Assembly (NCBI GenBank): GCA_963820825.1
Contig: CAWGBN010000008.1
Span: forward strand, 416,001-480,000
DNA length: 64,000 nt
Reading direction: 5' to 3'
Source: Vulcanimicrobiota bacterium
GTDB lineage: Bacteria > Vulcanimicrobiota > Vulcanimicrobiia > Vulcanimicrobiales > Vulcanimicrobiaceae
Part shown: piece after piece, positions 7,395 to 57,615 of the stretch
Layout of the letters: each line of letters starts with the position of its first letter
Position numbering within the stretch: the first letter of the stretch is position 1
Position numbers and translations under genes: made by a program
Notes under the pieces: generated by a model
Told to the model about the DNA's origin: nothing
The model's input: the letters and a program-made list of their open reading frames with translations, nothing else
Database searches by the model: none

Positions 7395-7426
7395 ACTCTA
7401 CGGGGCTCCTGCGAAAGTAATGCGAA
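7395..7426 (-). promoter_or_regulatory. TTC direct-repeat promoter, leaderless (BON-adh)
   Basis: TTCGC-N6-TTCGC-N10-TAGAGT-N6-ATG. Confidence 0.75.
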
Positions 7427-7432
7427 GAGAAG

Positions 7433-7464
7433 CTCATCGGTTCTTCACAGGAGAGGCATAGGGT
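7433..7464 (+). promoter_or_regulatory. TTC direct-repeat promoter, leaderless (HPF/RaiA gene)
   Basis: CTCAT-N6-TTCAC-N10-TAGGGT-N7-ATG. Confidence 0.6.
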
Positions 7465-7471
7465 TCACGTT

Positions 7472-7852
7472 ATGAGCGTTCCGGTACAAGTCACCTTCCG
7501 CGGCGTCGATCCATCGGACGCGCTGAGCGAGCTCATCGACAAAGAGGCCGCTAAGCTCGAGGCAATTTTCGCCCGAATCATCCGCTGCCACGTCACCGTC
7601 GAGAAGGTGGAGCGACACCTGCGCAACGGCGCGCCGTTCCAAGTCCGCATCGATTTGACCGTTCCCGGTGCAGAACTCGCGATCGACACGGCTCGAAGCC
7701 TTCGGGCTCCGGCCACCGACGACGAGACGCCGATGCGGCGCAAAAGCGCCGAAATCGACGCGATGCATAAAGACCCGGCACTGACGATTCGCGACGCCTT
7801 TCGCCGCGCGCGCCGGCGGCTGCAAGACTGGATCCGCCGCCGTCGGGAGTAG
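7472..7852 (+). CDS. HPF/RaiA (S30AE) ribosome-associated protein
   Basis: VQVTFRGVDPSDAL, IIRCHVTVE, VRIDLTVPG, IRDAFRRARRRL. Confidence 0.85.
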   Translation: MSVPVQVTFRGVDPSDALSELIDKEAAKLEAIFARIIRCHVTVEKVERHLRNGAPFQVRIDLTVPGAELAIDTARSLRAPATDDETPMRRKSAEIDAMHKDPALTIRDAFRRARRRLQDWIRRRRE

Positions 7853-7862
7853 CGCGCGCGGC

Positions 7863-8885
7863 TCAGGGTGATACAGGGGCGAGCGCGATCTTGCGGATCT
7901 CATTCGATCCCCAATCGACGACGTAGAGGGCGTTCTCCAGCGGATCGTAAGTCAGGTCTCCGGGCGTCGAAAAGCGCGCCGCCGCGCCGACTCCGTCGAC
8001 GCTGCCCGAGCTCTTCGCGCCAGCCAACGTCGTAACGTTCCCGCCGGCGTCGATTCTACGCACGGCATTATTCTGCGAATCGGCGACGTAGACGTTGTCG
8101 GCGGCGTCGCATGCGACGCCCGTCGGCCGATCGAAGCGAGCCGCCGATCGCGCGCCGTCGACGAAGCCGGCGCTCCGCGATCCGGCAAGCGTCGAAACCT
8201 TGCCGCTGTCGTCGATTGCTCGAATCTCGTTATTGCCGGTGTCGGCGACGTAGAGCGTATTCGATTCGCTGCAATAGGCGAGACCGTGCGGATCGTTCAG
8301 CGATTCCGCCAGCGTGGTCACTCGGCCGCGCGCATCGACCATGCGAATGCGATTGCGGCAGCCTTCGGCTACGTACAGCGCTCCTGAGTGTGGATCTGCG
8401 GCGAGTCCGGCGGCGCCGCCGTAGTGCGCGTTGCGCGGCGAGGCGTGTGCAAACCCCGAGGGATCTCCGGTGACGAATCGAGACCGGCCGTTCGCGGGAT
8501 CGATCGCAACGATACCGTCGAACTCCGGTGGCGGGGCGGCAGCCACCGAACCGCACGAAACGCCGCCGATCAAGACGTAGATTCGACGATCGTCCTGATG
8601 GAACGTCATCGCATTGGGCGAGACCGCATAGGCGAGTATCTCGACGTCGCCCAGTTGATCGATGCGCCAGATCGAATCCTTGTTCTCGACGTACGGCCCG
8701 AAGAACGGCACGGTTCCGGCTCCGTTCCAATAGCCGACGTAGATATCGCCGGTTACCGGGTCGCGCACGATTCCGTGCAGATGCGCGCCGGCCGTCGGAC
8801 CGCGCAGAAGATTCGCCTTGACGACGGTCGTGACCGTACCGGAGGCCGTCATCGTTACCGCGAGGAGGAGTGCGGCAAGGTTCAT
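7863..8885 (-). CDS. Secreted NHL-repeat beta-propeller protein
   Basis: Signal peptide. Repeats such as LYVADTGNNEIR, DG..AARF..P.G, VYVADSQNNAVR. Confidence 0.85.
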   Translation of the reverse strand: MNLAALLLAVTMTASGTVTTVVKANLLRGPTAGAHLHGIVRDPVTGDIYVGYWNGAGTVPFFGPYVENKDSIWRIDQLGDVEILAYAVSPNAMTFHQDDRRIYVLIGGVSCGSVAAAPPPEFDGIVAIDPANGRSRFVTGDPSGFAHASPRNAHYGGAAGLAADPHSGALYVAEGCRNRIRMVDARGRVTTLAESLNDPHGLAYCSESNTLYVADTGNNEIRAIDDSGKVSTLAGSRSAGFVDGARSAARFDRPTGVACDAADNVYVADSQNNAVRRIDAGGNVTTLAGAKSSGSVDGVGAAARFSTPGDLTYDPLENALYVVDWGSNEIRKIALAPVSP

Positions 8886-8888
8886 CGT

Positions 8889-10607: not shown

Positions 10608-11200
10608 GATGTCTGCCAAAGAATCTGGGGTGCCGAGCGTCCGTGACTCACGGGCGCCTCGTCCGGGAAGCCGACGACGACGGCAAATACCGGCGTCCAT
10701 CCCGGCGGAATGCCGAGCTCGCGCTTCGTCTCGTCGAGCACGAGCCACGGCCGGGCAAAGCCGATCGGACACGTTCCGAGGCCTTCGGCAAAGGCGGCGA
10801 GCATGAGATTTTCGGCGGCTAGGCAGCAGTCTTCGGCGGCCTGCGTTTCGGGCGAGGTCGCAGAGATCACGATCAAGGCCGGCGCTCCGTGAAAGATGTC
10901 GACGTTGCCTTCGAGCAGGGTGCGGACGTGCGCGGGGATTGCACCGGCAAGGTCGAGCAGATGCGTGCGGGCGCGGTCGGAGTAGCCCCTCAGTCGCTGG
11001 GCACCGGTCACGACGGCAAAGGCCCATGGCTGCAGATTCATCGCGCTGGGCGCTTGAATCGCGGCATCGATCAGTTTTTCGAGCGCTGCGCGCTCGAGCG
11101 GTTCGCTCGTATAGCGGCGAATGGCGCGACGCTGATAAATCGCGTTGAGCACTTCGATCGCCTGCAGCGAGCCCATCATGTTCGCATTACCCGGCTTCAT
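10604..11200 (-). CDS. Nitroreductase family protein
   Basis: RRAIRRY, APSAMNLQPWAF, ENLMLAA..GLGTCPIG. Confidence 0.92.
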   Translation of the reverse strand: MKPGNANMMGSLQAIEVLNAIYQRRAIRRYTSEPLERAALEKLIDAAIQAPSAMNLQPWAFAVVTGAQRLRGYSDRARTHLLDLAGAIPAHVRTLLEGNVDIFHGAPALIVISATSPETQAAEDCCLAAENLMLAAFAEGLGTCPIGFARPWLVLDETKRELGIPPGWTPVFAVVVGFPDEAPVSHGRSAPQILWQTS

Positions 11201-11610
11201 GCAGCCGTACTCCCTTCGCGCAGCGCTCGACGTCGCGGCGTCAACAGTAGTTCGATCGCCGTTAGGAGCGCTTCGAATGCCTTAGCGCCGATCCGCGCTC
11301 CGATCGCTTCGTGGAAGAGCCTGGCCGCCGCATCGTCGTCGACCACGATCTCCCCGGACATCGTCGGAAGCGCAAAGCCCCCCTGATGGCTCCAGGTAAA
11401 CGCGATGGATAGGCGTCGTTTGACCGACCCGGCGGCGCGCCCGGCGAGAACGTAGACCGCGTCGATCGGTGCGGCGGCAAGTGAGGCCGGCGGGATTGCG
11501 ACCGTAAAAATGCTCGCCACCCCGCCCATGGTCGCCTCCATCAAGGATGCCAGCGCCTCGTCCGATCGAAGCCCGAGCCGGAAATTTGTCTCCAACGAAT
11601 GTCGATTCAT
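11197..11610 (-). CDS. Hypothetical protein, divergent paralog of 23994..24464 and 27461..27910
   Basis: GAGGAG RBS before ATG at 11610. W..ALPTMSGEI and F..AIG.RI motifs are shared with the paralogs. Confidence 0.65.
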   Translation of the reverse strand: MNRHSLETNFRLGLRSDEALASLMEATMGGVASIFTVAIPPASLAAAPIDAVYVLAGRAAGSVKRRLSIAFTWSHQGGFALPTMSGEIVVDDDAAARLFHEAIGARIGAKAFEALLTAIELLLTPRRRALREGSTAA

Positions 11611-11635
11611 GACCCTCTCCTCAAGCGATGCGGCC

Positions 11636-11667
11636 ATTGTACGGCCCGATTGAGAAACGCTGCGGAA
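11636..11667 (-). promoter_or_regulatory. TTC direct-repeat promoter, leadered (hypothetical-nitroreductase-DUF6600-NHL operon)
   Basis: TTCCG-N6-TTCTC-N10-TACAAT. Confidence 0.7.
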
Positions 11668-11714: not shown

Positions 11715-11746
11715 TTCACCACGCTTTCCACCTTTCGCGTTAGGCT
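11715..11746 (+). promoter_or_regulatory. TTC direct-repeat promoter, leaderless (hypothetical-PRTase-esterase operon)
   Basis: TTCAC-N6-TTCCA-N10-TAGGCT-N6-ATG. Confidence 0.75.
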
Positions 11747-12262: not shown

Positions 12263-12937
12263 ATGGATTCGATGCCACGCTTTACCGATCGAGCCGCTGC
12301 GGGCCGGCAGCTTGCCGAGCGCCTGCGAGAGTACGCGGGGCGCCGCGATCTGCTCGTGCTCGCGCTTCCTCGCGGCGGCGTGCCGGTGGGTTACGAAGTC
12401 GCCAAAGCGCTCGATGCTCCGCTCGACGTCTACATCGTGCGAAAGCTCGGCGTCCCCGGCCACGAGGAGGTGGCGATGGGAGCCGTCGCTTCGGACGGAA
12501 GCTACGTCGTGGACGGCGGCATGATCGACGCGTGCGGCGTCTCGCTCAAAGACTTTCAAGTCGAGCTCGTGCACGAATTCGGCGAGCTCAAGCGGCGCGA
12601 GGTTGCCTATCGCGACGATCGGCCCGAACCCGATCCCTTTGGGAAGACCGTCATCGTCGTCGACGACGGCCTGGCCACGGGAGCCTCGATGTACTCCGCC
12701 GTCTCGGCCTTGCGTCAGCGCGAGCCGGCCGCGATCGTCGTCGCGGTACCGGTCGCGCCGCCCGAGACGTGCCGGTCGCTCGAGCGGGTCGCCGACCGCG
12801 TCGTCTGCCCGAATCAACCCGAGCCCTTCGGCGCGGTCGGCTACTACTACGCCGATTTCCGGCAGCTGCACGATGAGGACGTGCGGCGTTTACTCGAGCT
12901 CGCGCAGCGGAACGGAGCGTCATGGAGAGTCGCGTAG
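12263..12937 (+). CDS. Phosphoribosyltransferase (Rv0571c/Rv2030c N-terminal type)
   Basis: FTDRAAAGRQLA, LALPRGGVPV, RKLGVPGHEE.AMGA, VIVVDDGLATG. Confidence 0.92.
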   Translation: MDSMPRFTDRAAAGRQLAERLREYAGRRDLLVLALPRGGVPVGYEVAKALDAPLDVYIVRKLGVPGHEEVAMGAVASDGSYVVDGGMIDACGVSLKDFQVELVHEFGELKRREVAYRDDRPEPDPFGKTVIVVDDGLATGASMYSAVSALRQREPAAIVVAVPVAPPETCRSLERVADRVVCPNQPEPFGAVGYYYADFRQLHDEDVRRLLELAQRNGASWRVA

Positions 12938-14259
12938 CCGTCGACCTCGCCCACGCGCTGATCCCGCTCGCGGGAGAGCGCCGCGAACACGATGCCCTCT
13001 TCGAGATGATCGGCGACGCGCCGGTGGTCTTGATCGGCGAGGCGACGCACGGGACGCACGAGTTTTACCGCATGCGCGCCGAACTGACCAAAAGGCTGAT
13101 CACCGAAAAAGGCTTCACCGCCGTCTGCATCGAGGGCGACTGGCCCGACGCCTATCGCGTGAACCGTTACGTACGCGGTGCGAACGACGATGCCGAGGCG
13201 GTCGACGCACTCGGCGGGTTCATCCGCTTTCCGACGTGGATGTGGCGCAATGCCGACGTGCTCGACTTCGTCGGCTGGCTGCGCGAGTATAACGACTTCT
13301 GCCAAACCAGCGTGCGTCCGAAGGCCGGCTTCTACGGACTCGATCTCTATAGCATGTACGCCTCGATCGACGCCGTCCTCGCCTACCTCGACCGCATCGA
13401 TCCGGCTGCGGCGGCATCGGCGCGCCGGCATTACGAATGCTTGGAGGTCTACGCCGAGCACCCCGAACGCTACGGGATGGCAGCGGCGCACGGGTTGGAA
13501 CCGCGCTGCCGAAGCGAAGTGATCTCCGCGCTGCTGGAGATCCAGCGCAAGGCGGCGCAGTATGCACGGCTCGACGGGCGCGTCGCCGAGGACCAATACT
13601 TCTACGCCGAGCAGAATGCGCGCATCGTCGCCAACGCAGAGCGCTACTATCGCGCGATGATCGATTACTCGGCATCGACGTGGAATCTGCGCGACGAGCA
13701 CATGGCCGATACGCTCGATCGATTGCTGCATCACCTTGCCGGCCGTCAGGGCAGCGCCAAAGCGGTGGTTTGGGCGCATAACTCGCACGTCGGCAGCGCC
13801 GACGCGACCTCGATGTCGCAGCGCGGCGAGACGAACATCGGCGCGTTGAAGCGGCGGCAGTACGGCGACGACTGCATCGCCGTTGGTTTCTCGACCTATA
13901 CCGGCACCGTTACCGCCGCCTCCGATTGGCACGAGCCCGAAGAACGCAAGCGCGTCCGTCCCGCCCGAAACGACAGCTTCGAGTACACGTTTCACGCGCT
14001 CGGGGTGCCGCGCTTCTGGGTTCCGCTCCGGCCTTATCGGCCGCAGCTCGATGGCCTTCCGGCGGAAGCGCTCGAACGCGCGATCGGCGTGATCTATCGT
14101 CCGGATACCGAACTCCAGAGCCACTACTTCACCGCGCGGCTCATCGACCAGTTCGACGCGATCTACCACTACGACGTCACGCGCGCCGTCCAGCCCTTGG
14201 AGCGCAGCCGGCTCTGGCTCGAGGGCGAACCCCCCGAAGCCTATCCGACCGGAGAATGA
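12922..14259 (+). CDS. Erythromycin esterase family protein (Rv2030c C-terminal type)
   Basis: IGEATHGTHEFY, EGDWPDA, FPTWMWRN, WNLRDEHM, WAHNSHVG, ERAIGVIYRP. Confidence 0.92.
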   Translation: MESRVAVDLAHALIPLAGERREHDALFEMIGDAPVVLIGEATHGTHEFYRMRAELTKRLITEKGFTAVCIEGDWPDAYRVNRYVRGANDDAEAVDALGGFIRFPTWMWRNADVLDFVGWLREYNDFCQTSVRPKAGFYGLDLYSMYASIDAVLAYLDRIDPAAAASARRHYECLEVYAEHPERYGMAAAHGLEPRCRSEVISALLEIQRKAAQYARLDGRVAEDQYFYAEQNARIVANAERYYRAMIDYSASTWNLRDEHMADTLDRLLHHLAGRQGSAKAVVWAHNSHVGSADATSMSQRGETNIGALKRRQYGDDCIAVGFSTYTGTVTAASDWHEPEERKRVRPARNDSFEYTFHALGVPRFWVPLRPYRPQLDGLPAEALERAIGVIYRPDTELQSHYFTARLIDQFDAIYHYDVTRAVQPLERSRLWLEGEPPEAYPTGE

Positions 14260-14286: not shown

Positions 14287-15552
14287 ATGAACGCGCTCGC
14301 GGAAGCCGGCGCCGAGCGGTTCGCGCTGCTTCTCGGACTCTCGCTCTTCTTCGGTTTTGCGTTTGAAGAGTTCTACTCCGACGATCTGCCGCGCCGGCCC
14401 GGCGGCGTTCGCACCTTTCCGCTCTTAGCGCTGGCCGGCGGGAGTCTCTACCTCGTCGAGCCGGAGTACGGCGCGGCCTTCATCGCAGGCCTGATAGTCG
14501 TCGGAACGTGGATCTACGCGTACGTGCGCCGCCAGAGCAAGAACGAGGCGAGCGCGGTCGAGGGCGCGTTCGTCGTTCCGGCCTGCAATCTGCTCGCGTA
14601 CTCGCTCGGAGCGATCGCGCTGACGCAGCCCCTCTGGCTCGCCGTCGGCGTTGCCGTCGCGGCGGTGTTGCTCTTAGGCGGACGCCGCACGCTGCACGAT
14701 TGGGCCGCACGCGTTTCGACGCAAGAGGTCGTTACCGCCGGACAGTTCCTGATTTTGGTCGGCGTCGTCTTGCCGCTGCTCGCCGGCCGGCCGCCGATTC
14801 CGTACACGTCGATCACGCCCTTCGGCGTTTGGCTTGCCGTCGTCGCCGTTTCGTCAATTTCGTACGCAAGCTATCTGCTGCAGCGTTACGTCTTTCCCAA
14901 CGGCGGTACGCTCTTGACCTCCGTCCTCGGCGGTCTCTACTCGTCGACCGCGACGACGGCGGTGCTCGCGCGCCGTCTGCGCGACGAAGGGGCCAGCGCA
15001 GAACTCGAGGCCGGTATCGTCGCGGCGACGGCGATGATGTACCTGCGCGTCCTCGTCGTCTGCTCGATCTTCAATCTCGCACTCGGGCGACTGCTGGTGC
15101 TTCCATTTCTCGCTCTCGCCGCGATCGCCGGCGCGCTCGCCGTGTGGCGCTTTCGTTCGGCAACGCGCTCGGCGCGCACGACTGATTTCCCGAATCCACT
15201 GCAGCTCTGGACGGCCCTGCTCTTTGCGCTGCTCTTCGTCGCCGTCTCGATGCTGGCAACGATCGCGCAGAGCCACTACGGCCGCTCGGGCGTCTTCGCA
15301 CTTGCCGGCATCGTCGGCGTGACCGATATCGATCCGTTCGTTTTGAGCCTCGCACAGGGCGGCGCGGCGGGCATCGGCTTGACCACGGCGGCCGCGGCGA
15401 TCGTCATCGCGACGTCGTCGAACAACGTGCTTAAGGCCATTTATACGATGCTCTTCTCGCGCGGGCGCGCCGGGGCGTTGCCGGCGGCGATGTTATGCGC
15501 GCTTGCCGCACTCGGCATTGCCGGCGCGCTCTTGCTGATTCGCTCGGTGTAA
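14287..15552 (+). CDS. MgtC/SapB-DUF4010 family membrane protein
   Basis: GGVRTFPL, LGGLYSSTATT, NPL, G.TDID motifs; many TM segments. Confidence 0.85.
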   Translation: MNALAEAGAERFALLLGLSLFFGFAFEEFYSDDLPRRPGGVRTFPLLALAGGSLYLVEPEYGAAFIAGLIVVGTWIYAYVRRQSKNEASAVEGAFVVPACNLLAYSLGAIALTQPLWLAVGVAVAAVLLLGGRRTLHDWAARVSTQEVVTAGQFLILVGVVLPLLAGRPPIPYTSITPFGVWLAVVAVSSISYASYLLQRYVFPNGGTLLTSVLGGLYSSTATTAVLARRLRDEGASAELEAGIVAATAMMYLRVLVVCSIFNLALGRLLVLPFLALAAIAGALAVWRFRSATRSARTTDFPNPLQLWTALLFALLFVAVSMLATIAQSHYGRSGVFALAGIVGVTDIDPFVLSLAQGGAAGIGLTTAAAAIVIATSSNNVLKAIYTMLFSRGRAGALPAAMLCALAALGIAGALLLIRSV

Positions 15553-15553: not shown

Positions 15554-16009
15554 CTACGCCGCTTTTCTCTGCGCGGGCGGGTTTCGAACGATCAGTACGG
15601 GCACGCTCGACTCGCGCATGACGACTTCGGCGACGCTGCCCATGAGAAAATGCTGAAATCCGCGCCGGCCGTGCGTACCCATGACGATGAGGTCGGCACC
15701 GAGCCGTTCGGCATATTTGAGGAGCTCGAAGGCGGGTACGCCGGTGCGAATCTGCCCGGTGGCGGTGACGCCTTCCCGACAGGCCCGCTCGATCGCCTCG
15801 GTGACGGTCCGCCGCGCCGCAATCTCCATGTCGCGAACCACGATATCCATCGCCGGGCTCGGCGGAGAGGTGGCCGTGATCGCGATCGGATCGACGACGG
15901 AGCAGATGCCCAGCTCGGCCTTTTGGGCCTGCGCTAATCCCAGGGCAACCGAGAACGCCTTGGAGGCGGCTTCGGATCCGTCGAGCGCGACTGCAATCTT
16001 AGTGAACAT
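15554..16009 (-). CDS. Universal stress protein
   Basis: KIAVALDGSE, DLIVMGTHGRRG...GSVAE. Confidence 0.93.
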   Translation of the reverse strand: MFTKIAVALDGSEAASKAFSVALGLAQAQKAELGICSVVDPIAITATSPPSPAMDIVVRDMEIAARRTVTEAIERACREGVTATGQIRTGVPAFELLKYAERLGADLIVMGTHGRRGFQHFLMGSVAEVVMRESSVPVLIVRNPPAQRKAA

Positions 16010-16015: not shown

Positions 16016-16047
16016 AGCCTACGCTCGACTCTAGAATTCGTCGTGAA
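16016..16047 (-). promoter_or_regulatory. TTC direct-repeat promoter, leaderless (USP)
   Basis: TTCAC-N6-TTCTA-N10-TAGGCT-N6-ATG. Confidence 0.75.
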
Positions 16048-16064: not shown

Positions 16065-16107
16065 TTCACAATCGCTTCACGGGAGCGTAACCGGAAACGG
16101 CTATTAT
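16065..16107 (+). promoter_or_regulatory. TTC direct-repeat promoter, leaderless (MacAB-type operon)
   Basis: TTCAC-N6-TTCAC-N6-GTAAC-N10-TATTAT-N6-GTG, i.e. three repeats in 11-bp phase. Confidence 0.65.

Positions 16108-18225: not shown

Positions 18226-18229
<4 letters not shown>
17517..18229 (+). CDS. MacB/LolD-type ABC ATP-binding protein (apparent frameshift near 18190)
   Basis: GPSGSGKS, LSGGQQQR, ILADEPTG, VTHE. Likely true stop is TGA 18227-18229 overlapping the permease GTG. Confidence 0.9.
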
Positions 18230-19448
<1,219 letters not shown>

Positions 19449-19489: not shown

Positions 19490-19521
19490 TTCACGGAGAA
19501 TTCCCGACGCTCTCGTAGGCT
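19490..19521 (+). promoter_or_regulatory. TTC direct-repeat promoter, leaderless (tandem USP)
   Basis: TTCAC-N6-TTCCC-N10-TAGGCT-N6-ATG. An inverted TTCAC-N6-TTCTC pair lies at 19457-19472. Confidence 0.75.
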
Positions 19522-21063: not shown

Positions 21064-21765
21064 TTACGGGCGGCGGAGTTTGTAGCCGACGCCGTAGACG
21101 GTGACGACGTACGCCGGATTACGGTTGTCGGCTTCGATCTTTTTTCGCAGGTTGTTGATGTGACGGTCGAGCGTCCGTTCGTAGATCGTTCCGGAGTCCT
21201 GCAGACGATCGAGCATTACTGCACGCGTGAAGACTTCGCCGGGGCTGCTCGCCAGCACCGCGAGGATTCGAAACTCGGTTGCGGTGACGTTCGCCGTCCT
21301 TCCGCCGACGCGTATCTCGTGTGAGGCGAGGTCGATCTCCAGGTCGCCGATGCGCACGAGGTTTGCAGCACCAGGCTCCCCAGGCTTGTGCTCCTCGACA
21401 CGCCGCAGCAGCGCGCGAATGCGCGCCATCAACTCGCGCGGCGAGAACGGTTTGGTCATGTAGTCGTCGGCGCCGAGCTCCAGGCCGACGATGCGATCGG
21501 ACTCTTCGCCGCGTGCGGTGAGCATGATCGCCGGGACGCGCCGGCCGCTCGCCGCCGTTTCGCGCAGGACGTCGAGCCCGCTCCCGTCGGGCAAGCCGAC
21601 GTCGAGGATCATCATCTCGGGTTTCGACTCACGAATCAGCGCGAGTCGCCTCGCCACGGTCGTGCAGAGCGTCGTGATGCGAAACCGTCGCGGTCGCAGA
21701 TAGCTCTCGACGACTTCTGCGACTTTCGGCTCGTCCTCGACGACGAGGACGCGCTTGCCGTCCAT
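21064..21765 (-). CDS. OmpR/BaeR-family response regulator (compensating frameshifts near 21650-21695)
   Basis: VLVVEDE, ILDVGLPD, GLELGADDY.TKPFSPREL, RTLDRHINNLRKKIE, TVYGVGY. Confidence 0.92.
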   Translation of the reverse strand: MDGKRVLVVEDEPKVAEVVESYLRPRRFRITTLCTTVARRLALIRESKPEMMILDVGLPDGSGLDVLRETAASGRRVPAIMLTARGEESDRIVGLELGADDYMTKPFSPRELMARIRALLRRVEEHKPGEPGAANLVRIGDLEIDLASHEIRVGGRTANVTATEFRILAVLASSPGEVFTRAVMLDRLQDSGTIYERTLDRHINNLRKKIEADNRNPAYVVTVYGVGYKLRRP

Positions 21766-21770
21766 CGGTC

Positions 21771-24470: not shown

Positions 24471-24502
24471 ATCCTAGCCATCACCTGCGAAGAACTATCG
24501 AA
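24471..24502 (-). promoter_or_regulatory. TTC direct-repeat promoter, leaderless (ba3 oxidase-response regulator operon)
   Basis: TTCGA-N6-TTCGC-N10-TAGGAT-N6-ATG. An inverted TTCCC-N6-TTCAC pair lies at 24510-24525. Confidence 0.75.
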
Positions 24503-24547
24503 TGGCGCCTTCCCAACTAATTCACAATTCGCAGGGCCAACCGCGAG

Positions 24548-25246
24548 CTAGGGTCTCTTCATTTTATAGCCGACGCCGTAGACGGTCACGATGTACTCGG
24601 GATTGCGCGGGTCCTTCTCGACCTTCTTGCGCAGGTTGTTGATGTGCCGGTCGAGCGTCCGCTCGTAGATCTCACCGTCGTCGCCGAGGCGGTCGAGCAG
24701 ATGCGAGCGGGTGAAGACCTCCCCCGGATTCTCCGCCAAGAGGGTAACGATCTTGAACTCGGTCGCCGTTAGATTCGCCGGCGCTCCGGCGACGCTGACC
24801 TCGTGAAAGTTGTGGTCGATCTCGAGCTCGCCGATGCGCGTTCGCCGGTTATTCTTGTGGCCGGTGGTCTGCTCTTCGGCCGTTCGGCGCAGGAGCGCGC
24901 GCACGCGCGCCACCACCTCGCGCGGCGAGAACGGCTTGGAGACGTAATCGTCGGCGCCGAGTTCCAAGCCGACGACCCGATCGGCTTCGTCGGAACGCGC
25001 GGTGAGCATGATCGTCGGAACGCGCGCGTTGGGCACCGAGACCGACCGAAGCACGTCGAGCCCGCTGCCGTCGGGCAGCGTGATGTCGAGCACGAGGACG
25101 TCGGGCGTGGAGCGCGCGATCGCCGCCGTCGCTTCGGCGACGTTCCCGCAGACGTCCACGATCATCCCCTCGCGCTCGAGATAGGCCTTGAGTACCTCGG
25201 CAATCTGCGGCTCGTCGTCGACCAGCAGAACCCGGCGTCGCTCCAT
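24548..25246 (-). CDS. OmpR/BaeR-family response regulator
   Basis: VLLVDDE, VLDITLPD, GADDYVSKPFSPREV, RTLDRHINNLRKKVE. ATG overlaps the upstream stop (TGATG). Confidence 0.94.
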   Translation of the reverse strand: MERRRVLLVDDEPQIAEVLKAYLEREGMIVDVCGNVAEATAAIARSTPDVLVLDITLPDGSGLDVLRSVSVPNARVPTIMLTARSDEADRVVGLELGADDYVSKPFSPREVVARVRALLRRTAEEQTTGHKNNRRTRIGELEIDHNFHEVSVAGAPANLTATEFKIVTLLAENPGEVFTRSHLLDRLGDDGEIYERTLDRHINNLRKKVEKDPRNPEYIVTVYGVGYKMKRP

Positions 25247-25505: not shown

Positions 25506-26651
25506 ATGGATGAGTCACTCTTTTCGCTCCGGGATATTGCGGGGAGCAGGTTCCCGCTGCTCGAGCACGCTCCGGACGCGACGATCATCGTCGACGGCGA
25601 GGGGATCATCCAGCTGGTCAACGCGCAGACCGAGCGGCTCTTCGGCTACTATCGCGAGGAGCTCATCGGCCAGGCCATCGAGATGCTCATCCCCAAGCGG
25701 TTCCACTCCCGGCACGTCGTGGAGCGAAAGGAGTACGCGTCCGAGCCGCGCGTCCGGCCGATGGGCGTCGGCCTCGAGCTCTTCGGCCTGCGCAAGGACG
25801 GCAGCGAGTTCCCGGTCGAGATCAGCTTGAGTCCGATCGCCACGCGCGAGGGGACCTTTATCGCCGGCGCGATTCGCGACGTGACCGAGCGCAAGGCGTT
25901 CGAAGCGCGCCTGCAGAGCCTCAATGCAGAGCTCGAGAAGGCGAGTCGCGCAAAAGACCAGTTCCTCGCCTCGATGAGCCACGAGCTGCGTACGCCGCTC
26001 AACGCCATTCTCGGCTTCACCGGAACCCTGCTCATGAAACTTCCGGGACCCCTCAACGAAGAGCAGGAGCGTCAGCTTCAAATCGTTCAATGGAGCGCCC
26101 GCCATCTGCTCTCGCTGATCAACGATATTCTCGATTTGGCCAAGGTGCAATCGGGAAAGCGCGAGCTTACCTACGAGCGAGTTCCGGTCAAAGAGGTGGT
26201 GGGAGACGTTGCCGCCTCGCTGGCATCGCTGGCCGAAGAGAAGGGTCTTGCATTCTCCCATGCCGTTGCGCCCAGCGCGGAGTTCGTTACGACCGACCGC
26301 CGCAGTCTGCGTCAGATCCTGCTGAACCTTACGCAGAATGCGATCAAGTTTACGGAACGCGGCGTCGTGCGAATCGACGTCAGCGCCGTCACGCGCAATG
26401 GGAGCGCGCGGCTCGCCATGAGCGTGATCGACACCGGCATCGGTATCAAGGGTGAGGACCTCGCACGCCTCTTCGAAGCCTTCGAACAGCTCGCCACGTC
26501 GAACGAGCGGCGTTTCGAAGGTACGGGGCTCGGACTTCATCTCTCGCGCACCCTCGCCGAACTTCTCGAGGGCGAGTTAACCGTTGCGAGCGAGCACGGG
26601 AAGGGGAGCACGTTTACGCTGACCTTGCCCCTGGCCGGCGCCGAGGGATAA
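25506..26651 (+). CDS. Cytoplasmic PAS (FixL-like) sensor histidine kinase
   Basis: PAS LIPKRFHSRH...RKDGSEFPVEISLS, H-box SHELRTPL, NAIKFT, DTGIGI, GTGLGL; no TM segment. Confidence 0.92.
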   Translation: MDESLFSLRDIAGSRFPLLEHAPDATIIVDGEGIIQLVNAQTERLFGYYREELIGQAIEMLIPKRFHSRHVVERKEYASEPRVRPMGVGLELFGLRKDGSEFPVEISLSPIATREGTFIAGAIRDVTERKAFEARLQSLNAELEKASRAKDQFLASMSHELRTPLNAILGFTGTLLMKLPGPLNEEQERQLQIVQWSARHLLSLINDILDLAKVQSGKRELTYERVPVKEVVGDVAASLASLAEEKGLAFSHAVAPSAEFVTTDRRSLRQILLNLTQNAIKFTERGVVRIDVSAVTRNGSARLAMSVIDTGIGIKGEDLARLFEAFEQLATSNERRFEGTGLGLHLSRTLAELLEGELTVASEHGKGSTFTLTLPLAGAEG

Positions 26652-27023
26652 GTGGTGCGAATCCTCGTTATCGACGACAATCCTGCGAATCTCGACCTGA
26701 TGCTCTACCTGCTGCGTGCTTTCGGCCACGAGGTCGAAGCGGCCGCCGACGGTCTCGCCGGATACGAAGCGCTCCAGCGCGATGGCTACGACCTCGTGTT
26801 GACCGATATTCTCATGCCGGGGATCGACGGTTATGAATTCGTGCGCCGCGTGAAGAGCGACGCTCGCTTCGCGTCGACGCCGGTCGTCGCGGTAACGGCG
26901 TTGGCGATGGACGCCGATCGCGCGCGAGTCGGTGCAGCCGGCTTCGACGGCTATATCACCAAGCCGATCGACCCCCAGCACTTCGTCGGCGAAATCGAGT
27001 CCTTTTTGGCGGGCCGCTTCTAG
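26652..27023 (+). CDS. Single-domain response regulator (DivK-like)
   Basis: VIDDN, LTDILMPG, AVTALAM, GFDGYITKPID. Confidence 0.9.
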   Translation: MVRILVIDDNPANLDLMLYLLRAFGHEVEAAADGLAGYEALQRDGYDLVLTDILMPGIDGYEFVRRVKSDARFASTPVVAVTALAMDADRARVGAAGFDGYITKPIDPQHFVGEIESFLAGRF

Positions 27024-27029
27024 CGACCG

Positions 27030-27398
27030 ATGGCGACCGTGCTCGTTGCCGACGACGATCGCCACACGCGCTTTCTCGTCAAGACCGTCCTCACGCACGT
27101 CGGGCACACCGTGATCGAGGCCGCCGACGGCGCCGACGCACTCACGCGTGCCCGCACCGAGACGCCCGACCTGATCCTGCTCGATCTTTCGATGCCGGGG
27201 ATGAGCGGCCCCGAATTTATCCGCGCGCTCCGCGCCGATCCGCGCACGCAGCCGACCAAAGTCGCCCTCTACACCGCGACGCCGTTGAACGCCGCGCTTC
27301 GCGATTTCATGGAGATCTACGGAATCGAACACGTCGTGCCCAAACCGGCCGAGCCCGCGCAACTGATCGAGGCAATAGAACGCGCCCTCTCCGGGTAA
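27030..27398 (+). CDS. Single-domain response regulator
   Basis: VADDD, LLDLSMPG, YTA, KP. Confidence 0.88.
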   Translation: MATVLVADDDRHTRFLVKTVLTHVGHTVIEAADGADALTRARTETPDLILLDLSMPGMSGPEFIRALRADPRTQPTKVALYTATPLNAALRDFMEIYGIEHVVPKPAEPAQLIEAIERALSG

Positions 27399-27422
27399 AC
27401 AAAGAAGTGATGGGAACGCACG

Positions 27423-27454
27423 TTCGCCGGTTCTTCTCATTAAATTGGTAGATT
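27423..27454 (+). promoter_or_regulatory. TTC direct-repeat promoter, leaderless
   Basis: TTCGC-N6-TTCTC-N10-TAGATT-N6-ATG. Confidence 0.75.
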
Positions 27455-40991: not shown

Positions 40992-48100
<7,109 letters not shown>

Positions 48101-49694: not shown

Positions 49695-50311
49695 GGATCC
49701 CAACTCGAACGGCCGGTCGGCGACGAAGTTGGCGCCGCCGTTGCCTGCTGGCCGGGCTTCGCGTACTTGCCCACGACCAGCACGTCGCGCATTCCCGAAT
49801 GATAGTGGAAGGCACAGCCGATCAGATAGATGCCGTCTTTGACCAGTGTCATCGTGACCGATTTTCCGTGAGCGATCGGGCCGCTTGCGTAACCGGAGGC
49901 GAGTTTGCCGTCTCCCTTTGCCTTGACCGAGAGAATCGGGTCCTTCGGAAAGACCGCGGGCGCCTTGGCGATCACCTTCACGACGTCGAGCGTATGCGTG
50001 TTGCTCTTCGAGAGGTTGTGAATCGTGATCTTCGTGCCGGGCGGAAAGCCGAGCGCTTGCGAGCGGGTTTGTTGCGTATAGCCGCCCAGCGTCGCCTTCC
50101 ACTTCGACGATTTTAGTTCTCCGAGCCCTTCGCCCGGGAGCTCTTCGCCGATGGTATCCTTCGGCATCGTTGCGTACATCGCGAGATCGCCGACCGGCGG
50201 CAGCATCACCGTATTCCCGCCCATGGCGCTGCCGTTGGTCATGCGTCCGCCGCAGGCGCTGATCGCAAGACCCGCGATCGCCAGCCCGACGGCAATAAGT
50301 CTCCTGGACAT
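49691..50311 (-). CDS. Cupredoxin-like (type 1 copper) lipoprotein
   Basis: Lipobox ISAC; HTL plus CAFHYHSGM. Confidence 0.75.
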   Translation of the reverse strand: MSRRLIAVGLAIAGLAISACGGRMTNGSAMGGNTVMLPPVGDLAMYATMPKDTIGEELPGEGLGELKSSKWKATLGGYTQQTRSQALGFPPGTKITIHNLSKSNTHTLDVVKVIAKAPAVFPKDPILSVKAKGDGKLASGYASGPIAHGKSVTMTLVKDGIYLIGCAFHYHSGMRDVLVVGKYAKPGQQATAAPTSSPTGRSSWDP

Positions 50312-50331: not shown

Positions 50332-50952
50332 CTATGGTTGATAGCTCGAATGTGAACTCGGCGACTGCGTCGACCGCGGCGGCGGCGTCGCCTGCGGCCC
50401 GGGGGTAGCGTGGACGGCGACGACCAGCACGTCGCGCATTCCCGAATGATAGTGGTACGCGCAGCCGATTAAATAGATGCCGGCTTTGGCGAGCGTCACC
50501 GTCACCGATTTACCCGGCTTGATCGGACCGCTCGCGTAACCGAGTTGGAGTTTACCGCCGCCTTTGGGGGGGATCGAAAGCTTTGGATTTGCCGGGAAGA
50601 CCGCGGGCGGCTTGGTGACCACCTTCACGACGTCGAGCGTGTGCGTGATCTTCGACGAGAGATTGCGAATCGTGATCTTCGTGCCGGGCGGAAATCCGAG
50701 CGCTTGCGAGTAGTGCGTCTGCGTATATCCGCCGAGCGTCGCGACCCACTTCTTGGATTTGATCGTACCGAGCCCTTCGAACGGAAGCTCCTCGCCGATC
50801 GTGTCCTTTGGAACGTTTGCGAAGAGTGCCAGATCGCTATCGATCTGCGGAAGGACGACCGTGCCTCCACCGCGGCCAGCGCCCGCGCCGCCGCACGCGG
50901 CGACGGCGAGGCCTGCAAGGGCGACGGCCAGCGCGATAAATTTCCTCACCAT
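50332..50952 (-). CDS. Cupredoxin-like lipoprotein, tandem paralog
   Basis: Lipobox VAAC; HTL plus CAYHYHSGM. Confidence 0.75.
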   Translation of the reverse strand: MVRKFIALAVALAGLAVAACGGAGAGRGGGTVVLPQIDSDLALFANVPKDTIGEELPFEGLGTIKSKKWVATLGGYTQTHYSQALGFPPGTKITIRNLSSKITHTLDVVKVVTKPPAVFPANPKLSIPPKGGGKLQLGYASGPIKPGKSVTVTLAKAGIYLIGCAYHYHSGMRDVLVVAVHATPGPQATPPPRSTQSPSSHSSYQP

Positions 50953-50958: not shown

Positions 50959-50990
50959 ACTCTAGGCCGGGGGCATGAAGAAAGTCTAAA
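50959..50990 (-). promoter_or_regulatory. TTC direct-repeat promoter, leaderless (cupredoxin pair)
   Basis: TTTAG-N6-TTCAT-N10-TAGAGT-N6-ATG. Confidence 0.55.
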
Positions 50991-53379: not shown

Positions 53380-53411
53380 ATCCTAGCACGCCATCGGGAA
53401 GGCCTGAGGAA
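53380..53411 (-). promoter_or_regulatory. TTC direct-repeat promoter, leadered
   Basis: TTCCT-N6-TTCCC-N10-TAGGAT. Confidence 0.7.
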
Positions 53412-56284: not shown

Positions 56285-56342
56285 AGCTCTCTGCTTTCCC
56301 AATCGCGTTTTCTTCAAAGCGCGACCGAGCGTTCGCACGCGA

Positions 56343-56379: not shown

Positions 56380-56384
56380 CGTGG

Positions 56385-56819
56385 TTATGCGGATTTAACC
56401 TCGATCTTTTTTGGGGCGATCGGTCGTGCCGGCGTCAAAAGAACCTTAAGCACGCCTTTCTCGATCGTCGCGGAGACGCTCTCGGCATCGAGGTCTTGCG
56501 GCAGCGTGACGCTGCGCGAGAACGAGCCGCGGCGCATCTCGCGCCGATGGTACTTGACGTCCTTCTTCTCGCTTTTTTCGACGTGCTGACCGCTGACCGT
56601 CACGGTGCCGCCGTCGACTTCCACGTTGATTTCGCTCGGATCGTAGCCCGGCGTCGCCATCTCCAACACGTACTTGCCGTCCTTTTCGTAGAGATCGAGC
56701 GGCGCAAGCACGTTCTGATACCGCGTGGCCGGCCATTGCATATCGAAGAACGAATCGAACATTTGGTCGAGTAGCGCGAGGTCGCCACCGTTACCATCCC
56801 TTGTTTTTAGCAGAGTCAT
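56385..56819 (-). CDS. Hsp20/alpha-crystallin small heat-shock protein
   Basis: DLYE, PG, RRE...GSFSRSVTLP, A....GVL.V, C-terminal IEV. Confidence 0.93.
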   Translation of the reverse strand: MTLLKTRDGNGGDLALLDQMFDSFFDMQWPATRYQNVLAPLDLYEKDGKYVLEMATPGYDPSEINVEVDGGTVTVSGQHVEKSEKKDVKYHRREMRRGSFSRSVTLPQDLDAESVSATIEKGVLKVLLTPARPIAPKKIEVKSA

Positions 56820-56868
56820 AACTTGAGTTTCCTTCCTTACTTACTCCATATCAATGTTATACGTGCCG

Positions 56869-56900
56869 ATTCTAGCGCGTCGCTGAGAAAAACTAGAGAA
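56869..56900 (-). promoter_or_regulatory. TTC direct-repeat promoter, leadered (Hsp20)
   Basis: TTCTC-N6-TTCTC-N10-TAGAAT. Confidence 0.78.
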
Positions 56901-57537
56901 AGCGCGCGAACCATTCCCGCGCGAGCCGCGCAACTTCGGCGAGCGTCCCCGGCTCTTCAAAGAGATGCGTCGCGCCCGGCACGATTGCGATTTGCCGGGG
57001 CGCGGTCATTCGAGCCGCGGCCTCCCGGTTAAGCCGGAGAACCACCTCGTCCGCACCGCCGACGACGAGCAGCGTCGGCGCCGCAACGCGCGACAGGTAG
57101 GCTCCCGCGAGATCGGGACGTCCGCCGCGCGAGACGACGGCACCGACGTGCTTCGGTAACGATGCCGCCGCGACGAGCGCGGCTGCAGCGCCGGTGCTCG
57201 CGCCGAAGTATCCGATCGGCAAGTCGCGCACGGTCGGCTCTTCCAGCGCCCACTTGGTCGCCGCGACGAGCCGTTTGGCCAAGAGTCCGATGTCGAACCG
57301 AAGCGCCGCCGTTCGCCGGTCGACCGACTCCTCTTCGGGAGTGAGCAGATCGAAGAGCAACGATGCGATATTGCCTTCGGCGAGCGCGTCGGCGACGAAG
57401 CCGTTGCGCGGACTATGGCGGCTGCTGCCGCTGCCGTGCGCGAAGAGCACCAAACCGGTCGCCTTCGCGGGGCGTCTCAAGAACGCAGGGCCGACGATTC
57501 CCTTGCCGATCCGCACGTCGATTTCCGAAAGATTCAC
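56893..57537 (-). CDS. Dienelactone hydrolase-like alpha/beta hydrolase (Rv0571c C-terminal type)
   Basis: FAHGSGSSRHSPRN, FDIGLLA.RL, GYFGASTGAAAAL, SRGGRPDLAG, GATHLFEEPG. Confidence 0.9.
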   Translation of the reverse strand: MNLSEIDVRIGKGIVGPAFLRRPAKATGLVLFAHGSGSSRHSPRNGFVADALAEGNIASLLFDLLTPEEESVDRRTAALRFDIGLLAKRLVAATKWALEEPTVRDLPIGYFGASTGAAAALVAAASLPKHVGAVVSRGGRPDLAGAYLSRVAAPTLLVVGGADEVVLRLNREAAARMTAPRQIAIVPGATHLFEEPGTLAEVARLAREWFARFL

Positions 57538-57545
57538 GCCTTCCC

Positions 57546-57577
57546 ATGGTATCCGATACTTGGGAAGCACCCGGGAA
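57546..57577 (-). promoter_or_regulatory. TTC direct-repeat promoter (hydrolase)
   Basis: TTCCC-N6-TTCCC-N10-TACCAT-N8-GTG. Confidence 0.75.
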
Positions 57578-57583
57578 GCAGGC

Positions 57584-57615
57584 TTCCTCGGCGATTCTCG
57601 ATTTCGCGGTAGCAT
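57584..57615 (+). promoter_or_regulatory. TTC direct-repeat promoter, leaderless (ABM-like gene)
   Basis: TTCCT-N6-TTCTC-N10-TAGCAT-N6-ATG. Confidence 0.75.

What the first reader, a model, noticed from the sequence alone, without database searches (positions are those of the whole stretch)
7395..57615. Candidate 14-promoter regulon defined by TTCnn-N6-TTCnn-N10-TAnnnT
Seen: promoters at 7395, 7433, 11636, 11715, 16016, 16065, 19490, 24471, 27423, 50959, 53380, 56869, 57546 and 57584 carry TTC-type pentamers in 11-bp phase, ending exactly 10 nt before a TAnnnT hexamer. A few pentamers are degenerate (CTCAT, TTTAG, GTAAC). Established: 11-bp direct repeats that replace the -35 element 10 bp upstream of -10 are the PhoB/OmpR activator geometry. 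Inference: one OmpR-family regulator co-activates USPs, Hsp20, HPF, BON/ADH, nitroreductase, PRTase/esterase, hydrolase, cupredoxins and the ba3 oxidase across two blocks about 22 kb apart. I do not recognise a described regulon with this box and gene set.
Basis: partly seen in the sequence, partly recalled or inferred. Interest (0 to 1): 0.9.

Follow-up and report, generated by a model that had tools for sequence, protein, structure and literature searches.

The report
Stress regulon with TTC-repeat promoters
An uncultured soil bacterium (Eremiobacterota) puts about two dozen stress-survival gene units behind one rigid promoter design, most likely switched on by a haem-type sensor kinase and its OmpR-type regulator; this is a new wiring of a known kind of low-oxygen survival programme.

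Summary
TTC-N8-TTC-N12-TANNNT occurs 12 times in the window against 0.10 expected, and 35 times in the 2.98 Mb genome against 4 for the reversed pattern. Only this exact spacing is enriched.

Thirteen of the 14 sites form one box type (TTCnC-N6-TTCtC). The site at 50959 belongs to a second type (TTYAGACTTTCTTCAY). That type persists in relatives lacking the candidate regulator.

About half the boxes have four half-sites: GAA-N8-GAA-N6/7-TTC-N8-TTC.

The likely regulators are two paralogous OmpR-type response regulators (24548-25246 and 21064-21765). They share a recognition helix that no other regulator in the genome has. A FixL-like haem-PAS kinase (25506-26651) lies next to the first one. 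Kinase, regulator and both flanking box promoters are conserved together in 10 of 24 same-genus genomes, and the box is enriched only in those.

The box resembles the CreB/BlrA cre/blr tag. The gene set resembles the DosR/OsdR dormancy regulons, but the regulator type differs.

Verdict: a new variant of a known kind. This scan has noted analogous islands with other wiring in other phyla.

The parts
7395..7426 (-). Type-B box plus -10 (TAGAGT). ATG 6 nt downstream. Drives BON (6729-7388), Zn-ADH (5721-6722) and hemerythrin (5124-5696).
7433..7464 (+). Divergent partner promoter with distal CTC, proximal TTCAC and TAGGGT. ATG of short HPF (7472-7852) 7 nt downstream. With 7395-7426 it forms a four-half-site element with a 6-nt gap.
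11636..11667 (-). Type-B box plus TACAAT. First usable in-frame ATG 25 nt downstream (137-aa protein of no known family, 11197-11610).
11715..11746 (+). Type-B box plus TAGGCT. ATG 6 nt downstream. Drives a 166-aa unknown protein, a phosphoribosyltransferase (12263-12937), an erythromycin-esterase-family protein (12922-14259) and DUF4010 (14287-15552).
16016..16047 (-). Type-B box plus TAGGCT. ATG 6 nt downstream. Drives universal stress protein 15554-16009.
16065..16107 (+). Three phased pentamers (TTCAC 16065, TTCAC 16076, GTAAC 16087), then TATTAT at 16102-16107. GTG 6 nt downstream. Drives an HlyD-like protein (16114-17520) and an ABC ATPase (17517-18320).
19490..19521 (+). Type-B box plus TAGGCT. 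ATG 6 nt downstream. Drives tandem-domain universal stress protein 19528-20451.
24471..24523 (-). Type-B box plus TAGGAT (24471-24502), with an inverted pair of half-sites at 24510 and 24521 although no divergent gene exists. ATG 6 nt downstream. Drives the SRPBCC-fold protein p156 (23994-24464), cytochrome oxidase subunit II/I genes, RR1 and a TMEM175-like channel. The promoter is conserved in 7 of 10 relatives' loci.
27404..27454 (+). Inverted pair (GAA at 27404 and 27414) plus type-B box and TAGATT. ATG 6 nt downstream. Drives p149 (27461-27910), a paralogue of p156.
53380..53411 (-). Type-B box plus TAGGAT. Drives a flavodoxin-fold NAD(P)H oxidoreductase (52073 to about 53350). The start is uncertain, about 29 nt downstream.
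56869..56900 (-). Type-B box plus TAGAAT. 49-nt leader. Drives Hsp20 (56385-56819).
57546..57577 (-). Type-B box plus TACCAT. GTG 8 nt downstream. Drives a dienelactone-hydrolase-like alpha/beta hydrolase (56893-57537).
57584..57615 (+). Divergent partner (6-nt gap) plus TAGCAT. ATG 6 nt downstream. Drives a 119-aa protein of no known family (57622-57981).
24548..25246 (-). RR2, an OmpR-type response regulator of 232 aa. Candidate box-binding activator. Recognition helix ERTLDRHINNLRKK.
25506..26651 (+). Soluble histidine kinase with a FixL-like PAS domain (proximal His conserved), divergent from RR2. No box in the 260-nt intergenic region.
26652..27398 (+). Two single-domain receiver proteins (26652-27023 and 27030-27398), conserved behind the kinase.
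21064..21765 (-). RR1, a paralogue of RR2 (60% identical, same recognition helix), at the end of the box-driven oxidase operon.
50959..50990 (-). NOT part of this regulon. Type-A box (TTTAGACTTTCTTCAT) plus TAGAGT. ATG 6 nt downstream. Drives two pseudoazurin-like 206-aa proteins (50332-50952 and 49691-50311).

Best explanation
The boxes are class-II-type activator sites for an OmpR-family response regulator.

Proposed mechanism:
- RR2 binds head-to-tail to two TTCnC pentamers 11 bp apart. Its paralogue RR1 has the same recognition helix and probably binds as well.
- The promoter-proximal pentamer ends 10 nt before a TANNNT hexamer, in the place of a -35 element. From there the regulator recruits the housekeeping RNA polymerase.
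- Transcription starts at or next to the start codon, giving leaderless mRNAs.
- In about half of the sites a second pair of pentamers lies head-to-head on the same face of the helix. This allows divergent promoters to share one element.
- The input is probably the soluble kinase next to RR2. Its PAS domain resembles the haem domain of FixL, so the signal is likely oxygen or a related gas or redox cue.
- RR1 sits at the end of a box-driven operon and would give positive feedback.

The output is a low-oxygen or stress survival set. It includes universal stress proteins, Hsp20, HPF, BON, alcohol dehydrogenases, pyruvate-phosphate-dikinase-type enzyme, PfkB kinase, malic enzyme, a haem-copper oxidase, a NirK-like protein, a cupredoxin and hydrolases.

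What is shown: the motif, its rigid geometry, its conservation, and its co-occurrence with the kinase and RR2.
What is inferred: binding, activation, the signal and the transcription start sites.
For: Enrichment: 12 matches against 0.10 expected in the window. In the genome, 35 against 4.

Rigid spacing: only N8 and N12 are enriched. No other position between the pentamers and the hexamer is conserved, so the sites are not copies of one sequence.

Leaderless layout: ATG or GTG exactly 6 nt after the hexamer in 11 of 35 strict sites.

Regulator identity:
- RR1 and RR2 are OmpR-type.
- Their recognition helix is unique among the OmpR-type proteins of the genome (12 Trans_reg_C matches; alignment).
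- The helix is invariant in all RR2 and RR1 orthologues of the genus and of the sister family.

Co-occurrence:
- Kinase orthologues (67% identity or more) occur in 10 of 24 same-genus genomes.
- RR2 orthologues (67% or more, full length) occur in exactly the same 10.
- The narrower pattern TTCNNBN5TTCNCRN9TANNNT gives 32 hits in those 10 genomes (control 10), 7 in the other 14 (control 8), and 17 in this genome (control 0).

Promoter conservation:
- The two promoters flanking the RR2-kinase-REC-REC cluster keep their half-sites, hexamer and ATG while the spacers diverge. The strict box is present at the p156 promoter in 7 of the 10 kinase-centred loci and at the p149 promoter in 4 of 10. An eighth p156-type box lies next to RR2 on another contig of G007.
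- Orthologous targets keep boxes in relatives: the BON operon in G014, a divergent USP pair in G002 and pyruvate phosphate dikinase in G013. Hsp20 in three sister-family genomes has the same geometry.

Four half-sites: 16 of 35 sites, against 17 of 1406 control repeat pairs.

Kinase: the PAS domain matches FixL haem domains at E about 1e-22, with the proximal histidine aligned.

Box precedent: RR2's best NCBIfam match is CreB. Its documented site is TTCAC-N6-TTCAC (PMC4689548, introduction passages; also seen upstream of E. coli creD).
Against: - There are no binding, expression or transcription-start data.
- Relatives are kin, so the co-occurrence counts overstate independence.
- G011 holds the kinase and RR2 but has 0 hits to the narrow pattern, and G007 has only 1.
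- G016 has neither gene in an 86%-complete assembly, yet its Hsp20 promoter keeps the proximal half-box.
- The RR2-kinase intergenic region has no box.
- A head-to-head pair of tandem sites is unusual for OmpR-type regulators.
- RR2 scores below the cut-off of every NCBIfam equivalog.
- The FixL distal arginine is not conserved (Leu in the aligned position), so haem binding and ligand are uncertain.
- I sorted sites into type A and type B partly by eye. Five outlying sites are borderline: C6:675591 and C8:554207, 631943, 645203 and 651915.
Confidence: 0.65

Rival explanations
1. The box is an operator for a repressor. The -10-only promoters would be constitutively active, and a protein bound from about -37 to -12 would occlude RNA polymerase until stress relieves it. 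The protein could be RR2/RR1 or another factor.
For: The box overlaps the region polymerase must occupy. Many high-GC bacteria use promoters with a weak or absent -35 (recalled). Canonical TTGAC-N17-TANNNT is only modestly enriched here: 34 against 10-28 for the reversed control and 11-21 at other spacers.
Against: A repressor site need not keep a base-exact distance to the hexamer. Here only one spacing out of 14 tested is enriched. This is what a protein-polymerase contact predicts. Symmetric elements serve two divergent promoters at mirrored, equal distances.
Confidence: 0.12
2. The box is bound by a different transcription factor. Candidates are another OmpR-type regulator of the genome or a symmetric dimer/tetramer that reads the inverted arrangement (Rex- or Crp-like). 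The linkage to RR2 and the kinase would then be neighbourhood only.
For: The outer upstream half-sites often read TTGTGAA, which resembles the Rex half-site in TTGTGAA-W4-TTCACAA (PMC2883068, abstract in the search listing). The genome has 12 Trans_reg_C matches, that is 10 OmpR-type proteins besides RR1 and RR2. A GerE-type protein lies at 37883-39190.
Against: The inner half-sites are 6-7 nt apart, not 4. The most conserved unit is the direct repeat, which is present in all sites, whereas the inverted pair is present in only 16 of 35. The box is at control level in the 14 same-genus genomes without RR2 and the kinase. Both flanks of the RR2 cluster carry the box in relatives.
Confidence: 0.15
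3. All 14 sites, including 50959, belong to one regulon under a single regulator.
For: Geometry, hexamer type and leaderless layout are the same at 50959. A regulator reading TTC pentamers might tolerate both box types.
Against: The type-A box is a near-invariant 16-mer shared by about nine sites. It is present in G018 and G022, which lack RR2 and the kinase and have 0 type-B-pattern hits. One copy heads an operon ending in a different OmpR-type regulator. That regulator is 80-86% conserved in 4 of 4 relatives tested, three of them without RR2.
Confidence: 0.08

Closest known systems
cre/blr tag of the CreBC (E. coli, Pseudomonas) and BlrAB (Aeromonas) two-component systems
   Same: The site is a direct repeat TTCAC-N6-TTCAC read by an OmpR-type regulator (PMC4689548, passages; seen upstream of E. 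coli creD). CreB is the best NCBIfam match of RR2.
   Different: RR2 scores 210.5 bits against a cut-off of 273 and is 41% identical to E. coli CreB. The partner kinase is a soluble PAS kinase, not CreC, and there is no creD. In E. coli the tag lies further upstream of creD, not fused to the -10 at a fixed 10 nt. The gene set is unrelated.
PhoB-type promoter architecture (pho box replacing the -35 element)
   Same: Two 11-bp phased direct repeats, with the proximal one about 10 bp upstream of the -10 and no -35 hexamer (recalled textbook knowledge; the geometry here was tested).
   Different: The half-site sequence and the regulon differ. RR1 and RR2 fall below the PhoB model cut-off. Here the promoters are mostly leaderless and often symmetric with four half-sites.
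DevR/DosR dormancy regulon of Mycobacterium tuberculosis and OsdR regulon of Streptomyces coelicolor
   Same: The gene content matches: many universal stress proteins clustered around the two-component system, a small heat-shock protein, Zn alcohol dehydrogenase, pyruvate phosphate dikinase divergent from a partner gene, and redox proteins. A haem-based kinase provides the input (PMC5069765, introduction, Table 1 and discussion passages).
   Different: Those regulators are NarL/LuxR-type and read a 16-20 bp palindrome (AGGGCCGATCGGCCCT for OsdR). No such palindrome lies in C8:396-480 kb. Here the regulator is OmpR-type, the site is a direct repeat, and the kinase sensor is PAS rather than GAF.
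FixL-FixJ oxygen-sensing system
   Same: The kinase PAS domain aligns with FixL haem domains (E about 1e-22) with the proximal histidine conserved. Single-domain receiver genes lie beside the kinase, reminiscent of FixT (recalled, not tested).
   Different: The partner regulator is OmpR-type, not FixJ-type. The distal arginine is not conserved. The match to NCBIfam FixL is far below its cut-off (165.5 against 850).
Corynebacterium glutamicum PhoR and CopR sites
   Same: These are tandem 8-9 bp repeats with 11-bp period. The reverse complement of the PhoR optimum CCTGTGAAaatCCTGTGAA reads TTCACAGG twice. That is close to the proximal TTCnCAGG seen here. One CopR tandem repeat in a divergent intergenic region activates both promoters (PMC3353115, passages).
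   Different: Phylum, regulons and signals differ. No four-half-site mirror arrangement or leaderless design is described in the passages read.

Membership tests
OmpR/PhoB-type class II activator promoter | Direct repeats with about 11-bp period | tested here: met
   Only N8 between TTC triplets is enriched: 35 against 4-11 for the other spacings from 4 to 13.
OmpR/PhoB-type class II activator promoter | Proximal repeat at a fixed distance from the -10, in place of a -35 element | tested here: met
   Only N12 (pentamer plus 10 nt) is enriched: 35 against 2-8. No conserved -35 positions.
OmpR/PhoB-type class II activator promoter | Cognate winged-helix response regulator genetically linked to the sites | tested here: met
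   RR2 is flanked by two boxes and RR1 lies inside a box-driven operon. Both are conserved with the boxes in relatives.
OmpR/PhoB-type class II activator promoter | Regulator binds the repeats and activates on phosphorylation | not testable with these tools
   Needs EMSA or DAP-seq and transcription assays.
CreBC/BlrAB cre regulon | TTCAC-N6-TTCAC tag | tested here: met
   The consensus of 26 curated sites is TTCnC-N6-TTCtC. An exact TTCAC-N6-TTCAC lies at 16065-16080. The tag sequence is taken from PMC4689548.
CreBC/BlrAB cre regulon | Regulator is a CreB orthologue | tested here: not met
   NF008296 scores 210.5 bits (RR2) and 194.2 bits (RR1) against a cut-off of 273. Identity to E. coli CreB is 41%.
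CreBC/BlrAB cre regulon | CreC-type kinase and creD neighbour | tested here: not met
   The neighbouring kinase is a soluble PAS kinase. No CreC or CreD family hit in the window.
DevR/DosR-OsdR dormancy regulon | NarL/LuxR-type regulator | tested here: not met
   The regulators linked to the boxes carry Trans_reg_C, not GerE.
DevR/DosR-OsdR dormancy regulon | GC-rich palindromic Dev/OsdR box | tested here: not met
   GGGMC-N4-GKCCC occurs 0 times in C8:396-480 kb and 10 times in the genome.
DevR/DosR-OsdR dormancy regulon | Gene content (USPs, sHsp, ADH, PPDK, redox proteins) clustered around the sensor system | tested here: met
   Pfam assignments of the genes behind the boxes, compared with PMC5069765 Table 1.
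FixL-type haem-PAS oxygen sensor | PAS domain homologous to the FixL haem domain with the proximal histidine | tested here: met
   E 1e-22 to 4e-23 to FixL chains. The 'SRH' with the ligand histidine aligns.
FixL-type haem-PAS oxygen sensor | Distal-pocket arginine and actual haem/O2 binding | tested here: not met
   The aligned position of the distal Arg is Leu. Haem binding itself is not testable here.
Rex operator | Inverted repeat TTGTGAA-N4-TTCACAA | tested here: not met
   Inner half-sites are separated by 6 nt (8 sites), 7 nt (5), 9 nt (2) or 5 nt (1), never 4. The direct repeat is the constant unit.

The most novel reading that the evidence does not exclude
The regulon is built as a unit for survival when translation is shut down. 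A symmetric four-site OmpR-type element fires one or two promoters that start at the start codon, in a genome where such leaderless starts are otherwise rare. TANNNT lies 6 nt before the first ATG/GTG of 45 of 3128 ORFs, against about 16 at other distances, and 8 of the 45 carry the box. The regulon itself encodes a ribosome hibernation factor. Leaderless mRNAs would then be the class still translated under oxygen or energy limitation. The circuit (haem-PAS kinase to CreB-like regulator) would be a further independent wiring of the dormancy gene set, beside DosR-type, sigma-54-type and Crp/Fnr-type ones.
Probability: 0.25. Interest if true: 0.7.

Novelty: new variant of a known kind. Interest (0 to 1): 0.45.

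Why it matters
Eremiobacterota (Vulcanimicrobiota) are abundant in soils, have few cultured members, and have no described regulon. Two full-text searches found nothing relevant: 'Eremiobacterota' with 'universal stress protein' gave 0 papers, and with 'response regulator' gave 4, with none of the 3 listed on this topic.

The finding gives a concrete, testable circuit for how such a bacterium may survive oxygen or energy limitation: a sensor, regulators, a cis-element and about two dozen target units.

It also adds a case of non-orthologous regulator replacement. The same survival gene set as in mycobacteria and streptomycetes sits under an OmpR-type box instead of a NarL-type palindrome.

The base-exact geometry, the mirror-image four-site elements and the regulon-specific leaderless design make it a clean model for activator-polymerase contacts in an unstudied phylum.

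Tried and rejected
- Iterating a position weight matrix over the genome drifted. It picked up a conserved coding stretch of phosphoesterase paralogues and ordinary TTGAC-type promoters. I therefore went back to strict patterns.
- My first count of leaderless starts was swamped by internal ATG/GTG codons. I replaced it with a count at the first start of each ORF.
- A Rex operator, a Crp-type dyad and an alternative-sigma -35 were considered and rejected on spacing.
- DosR/OsdR-type palindromes were sought and not found in the island.
- Pfam and NCBIfam gave nothing for p137, p166, p119 and p190.
- The P-type ATPase gene divergent from a USP (L001:3264) shares a four-half-site element. It has no TANNNT at the canonical distance, so I left it out.
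- A literature search for a ResD consensus found no usable passage, so I make no claim about ResD.
- The first cre-tag search was swamped by mammalian CREB and was refined.
- Look-ups of earlier scan notes by place (relatives) and with seven words found nothing.
- No protein-complex job was run.

Full report
**Where the window lies.** The window is G000:C8:416001-480000 of a 2.98 Mb, 9-contig, 64% G+C genome. The protein atlas agrees: the nearest clusters of one window protein are Vulcanimicrobiota.

**The observation.**
- The strict pattern TTC-N8-TTC-N12-TANNNT matches 12 times in the window against 0.10 expected.
The twelfth (57962, minus strand) is antisense in a gene end and is probably chance.
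- Genome-wide there are 35 matches against 4 for the reversed pattern.
- I varied the distance to the hexamer from 6 to 19 and the repeat spacing from 4 to 13. Only N12 and N8 stand out: 35 against 2-8 and against 4-11.
- Positions between the triplets are not conserved, so the sites are not copies of one sequence.
The fixed-spacing motif is not equally frequent elsewhere.

**Promoter anatomy.**
- A start codon lies exactly 6 nt after the hexamer in 11 of 35 strict sites.
- In the window a start codon lies 6-8 nt after the hexamer in 11 of the 14 sites. The other three (11636, 53380, 56869) have leaders of about 25, 29 and 49 nt.
- In this genome such a layout is rare. TANNNT sits 6 nt before the first ATG/GTG of 45 of 3128 ORFs, against 7-33 at other distances. 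Eight of those 45 carry both TTC triplets.
- Canonical TTGAC-N17-TANNNT promoters also exist (34 against 11-21 at other spacers), so a -35 element is used elsewhere.
- Transcription starts themselves could not be tested.

**Four half-sites.**
- In 16 of 35 sites an inverted pair GAA-N7-9-GAA lies 4-9 nt upstream. The same holds for only 17 of 1406 control TTC-N8-TTC pairs.
- The usual form is GAA-N8-GAA-N6/7-TTC-N8-TTC, so all four pentamer centres are about 11 bp apart.
- Some of these elements serve divergent gene pairs: 7395/7433, 57546/57584 and C8:415564/415603.
- Others have no divergent gene (24471, 27423), yet they keep all four half-sites in relatives.

**Two box types.**
- The site at 50959 belongs to a tighter family, TTYAGACTTTCTTCAY, with about nine members in the genome.
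- Type-A boxes are present in G018 and G022, which lack the candidate regulator.
- One type-A box heads an operon of an unknown protein, SCO1/SenC, a 441-aa protein and a different OmpR-type regulator.
- That regulator is 80-86% conserved in 4 of 4 relatives tested, three of them without RR2.
- Type-A targets include a HiPIP-like protein and the two pseudoazurin-like proteins of the window.
- A copper or redox regulon is a reasonable guess. The C. glutamicum CopR site, read as its reverse complement, shares TCTTCA with the type-A box (PMC3353115).

**Genes behind type-B boxes** (Pfam and NCBIfam).
- In the window:
  - BON, Zn-ADH and hemerythrin
  - a short HPF
  - two USP units
  - an unknown protein with phosphoribosyltransferase, an erythromycin-esterase-family protein and DUF4010
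  - an HlyD-like protein with an ABC ATPase
  - p156 with oxidase subunits, RR1 and a TMEM175-like channel
  - p149
  - a flavodoxin-fold NAD(P)H oxidoreductase (not a nitroreductase)
  - Hsp20
  - an alpha/beta hydrolase
  - a 119-aa unknown protein
- Outside the window:
  - two more USP units
  - a PfkB kinase divergent from an 810-aa PEP-utilising enzyme that runs into window 1-2073
  - two phosphoesterases
  - a Zn-ADH
  - malic enzyme
  - a NirK-like protein
  - a cupredoxin
  - an MmyB-like regulator
  - three unknown proteins
- p156 and p149 are paralogues (29% identical) of a phylum-restricted family. The predicted fold is SRPBCC/START (pLDDT 85). The best structural matches are TTHA0849, aromatase/cyclases and CoxG, with TM about 0.5.

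**The candidate regulators.**
- RR2 (24548-25246) and RR1 (21064-21765) are OmpR-type and 60% identical.
- They share the recognition helix ERTLDRHINNLRKK, which no other OmpR-type protein of the genome has.
- Divergent from RR2 lies a soluble kinase. Its PAS domain matches FixL haem domains (E about 1e-22) and DosP, with the proximal histidine aligned but the distal arginine replaced.
- Two single-domain receivers follow the kinase.
- No terminator-like site lies on the minus strand between p156 and RR1 (weak evidence), so RR1 is probably co-transcribed from the 24471 promoter.

- Kinase orthologues (67-75% identity) occur in 10 of 24 same-genus genomes.
- Full-length RR2 orthologues (67-79%) occur in exactly those 10, with fragments in G003 and G024.
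- RR1-like paralogues (60-61%) occur in G001, G009 and G012 only.
- In the loci around the kinase, the cluster p156 / RR2 / kinase / REC / REC / p149 is conserved.
- The strict box is present at the p156 promoter in 7 of the 10 kinase-centred loci and at the p149 promoter in 4 of 10, with degenerate copies in two more. G007 has the p156-type box next to RR2 on another contig.
- In the alignments the half-sites, the hexamer and the ATG are invariant while the spacers vary.
- The narrower pattern TTCNNBN5TTCNCRN9TANNNT counts 32 in the 10 kinase-positive genomes (control 10), 7 in the 14 others (control 8), and 17 in G000 (control 0).
- G000 thus has the largest set, and 17 of its 35 strict sites lie in C8:397-474 kb.
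- Orthologous targets keep boxes: BON-USP-DUF4010 in G014, a divergent USP pair in G002 and the PEP-utilising enzyme in G013. Hsp20 in three sister-family genomes has the same geometry.
- The recognition helix is invariant through genus and sister family. It changes at two positions in class-level relatives, and their enriched boxes look different.
- Against the reading: G011 has the genes but no narrow-pattern hit. G016 keeps half a box at Hsp20 without the genes in an 86%-complete assembly. Kin are not independent.

**Comparison with known systems.**
- The half-site and spacing are those of the cre/blr tag TTCAC-N6-TTCAC (PMC4689548; E. coli creD upstream).
- CreB is RR2's best NCBIfam hit but falls below the cut-off. 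The kinase, neighbours and regulon differ, so this is not a CreBC system.
- The geometry is that of PhoB-type promoters (recalled).
- The gene set parallels the DevR and OsdR regulons (PMC5069765). Those use NarL-type regulators and a palindrome, which is not found in this island.
- Earlier notes of this scan describe similar survival islands wired to sigma-54 or Crp/Fnr-type regulators in other phyla. I did not check those notes.

**Verdict.** This is a new variant of a known kind, of moderate interest.

Noticed in passing
window 50959-50990; G000 C8:2619, 5154, 5195; C2:390542; C6:329246, 668012; C7:14339, 114429: A second box family, TTYAGACTTTCTTCAY, has the same geometry. It lies in front of pseudoazurin-like, HiPIP-like, SCO1/SenC and unknown proteins, and of an operon ending in its own OmpR-type regulator. 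It is present in relatives without RR2 and the kinase. It may be a copper or redox regulon.
   Followed up: partly
window 21629-23811: The cytochrome oxidase subunit I and II reading frames are broken in this genome. Subunit II is an 86-aa ORF and subunit I is spread over two frames, with its ORF running into RR1. The G014 orthologues are intact (155 aa, and one long ORF). These are either pseudogenes or indel errors of the assembly.
   Followed up: partly
window 23994-24464 and 27461-27910: p156 and p149 are paralogues of a Vulcanimicrobiota-restricted family with a predicted SRPBCC/START fold. Structural matches include CoxG, a lipid/quinone-binding type. They are the most conserved targets and flank the two-component cluster.
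   Followed up: partly
whole genome G000: Leaderless-type starts (TANNNT 6 nt before the first ATG/GTG) are rare: 45 of 3128 ORFs, with a background of about 16. They are concentrated in the box promoters.
   Followed up: partly
window 11627-11629: At the 11636 promoter the position where other sites have ATG reads ATC, out of frame with the downstream ORF. The usable ATG is 25 nt after the hexamer.
   Followed up: no
G012, nine places (e.g. C22:172684, 173082, 173492): A near-identical promoter-like sequence, TTCCTnGCGATTTCTCACTnGGCTG, is repeated nine times in one relative, three of them within 1 kb. It looks like a multi-copy element or gene family.
   Followed up: no
G040, G031, G034, G035, G039 (class-level relatives): The same geometry appears with another consensus, TTCA-N7-TTTCAG (G040: 22 matches against 5 control). 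The RR2-like regulators in at least three of them (G031, G034, G040) carry a two-residue variant of the recognition helix.
   Followed up: no
window 44439-47976: Two large proteins consist of arrays of HAMP domains (4-6 stretches matched in each). They lie beside CheR-like, receiver and GAF-kinase genes, between the two blocks of box promoters.
   Followed up: no
L001:12283-13134 (G000 C8:408283-409134): An IS110-family transposase lies inside the 77-kb region that holds half of the genome's boxes.
   Followed up: no
L001:3226-3266 (G000 C8:399226-399266): A P-type cation ATPase gene is divergent from a box-driven USP and shares its four-half-site element. It lacks a TANNNT at the canonical distance.
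   Followed up: partly
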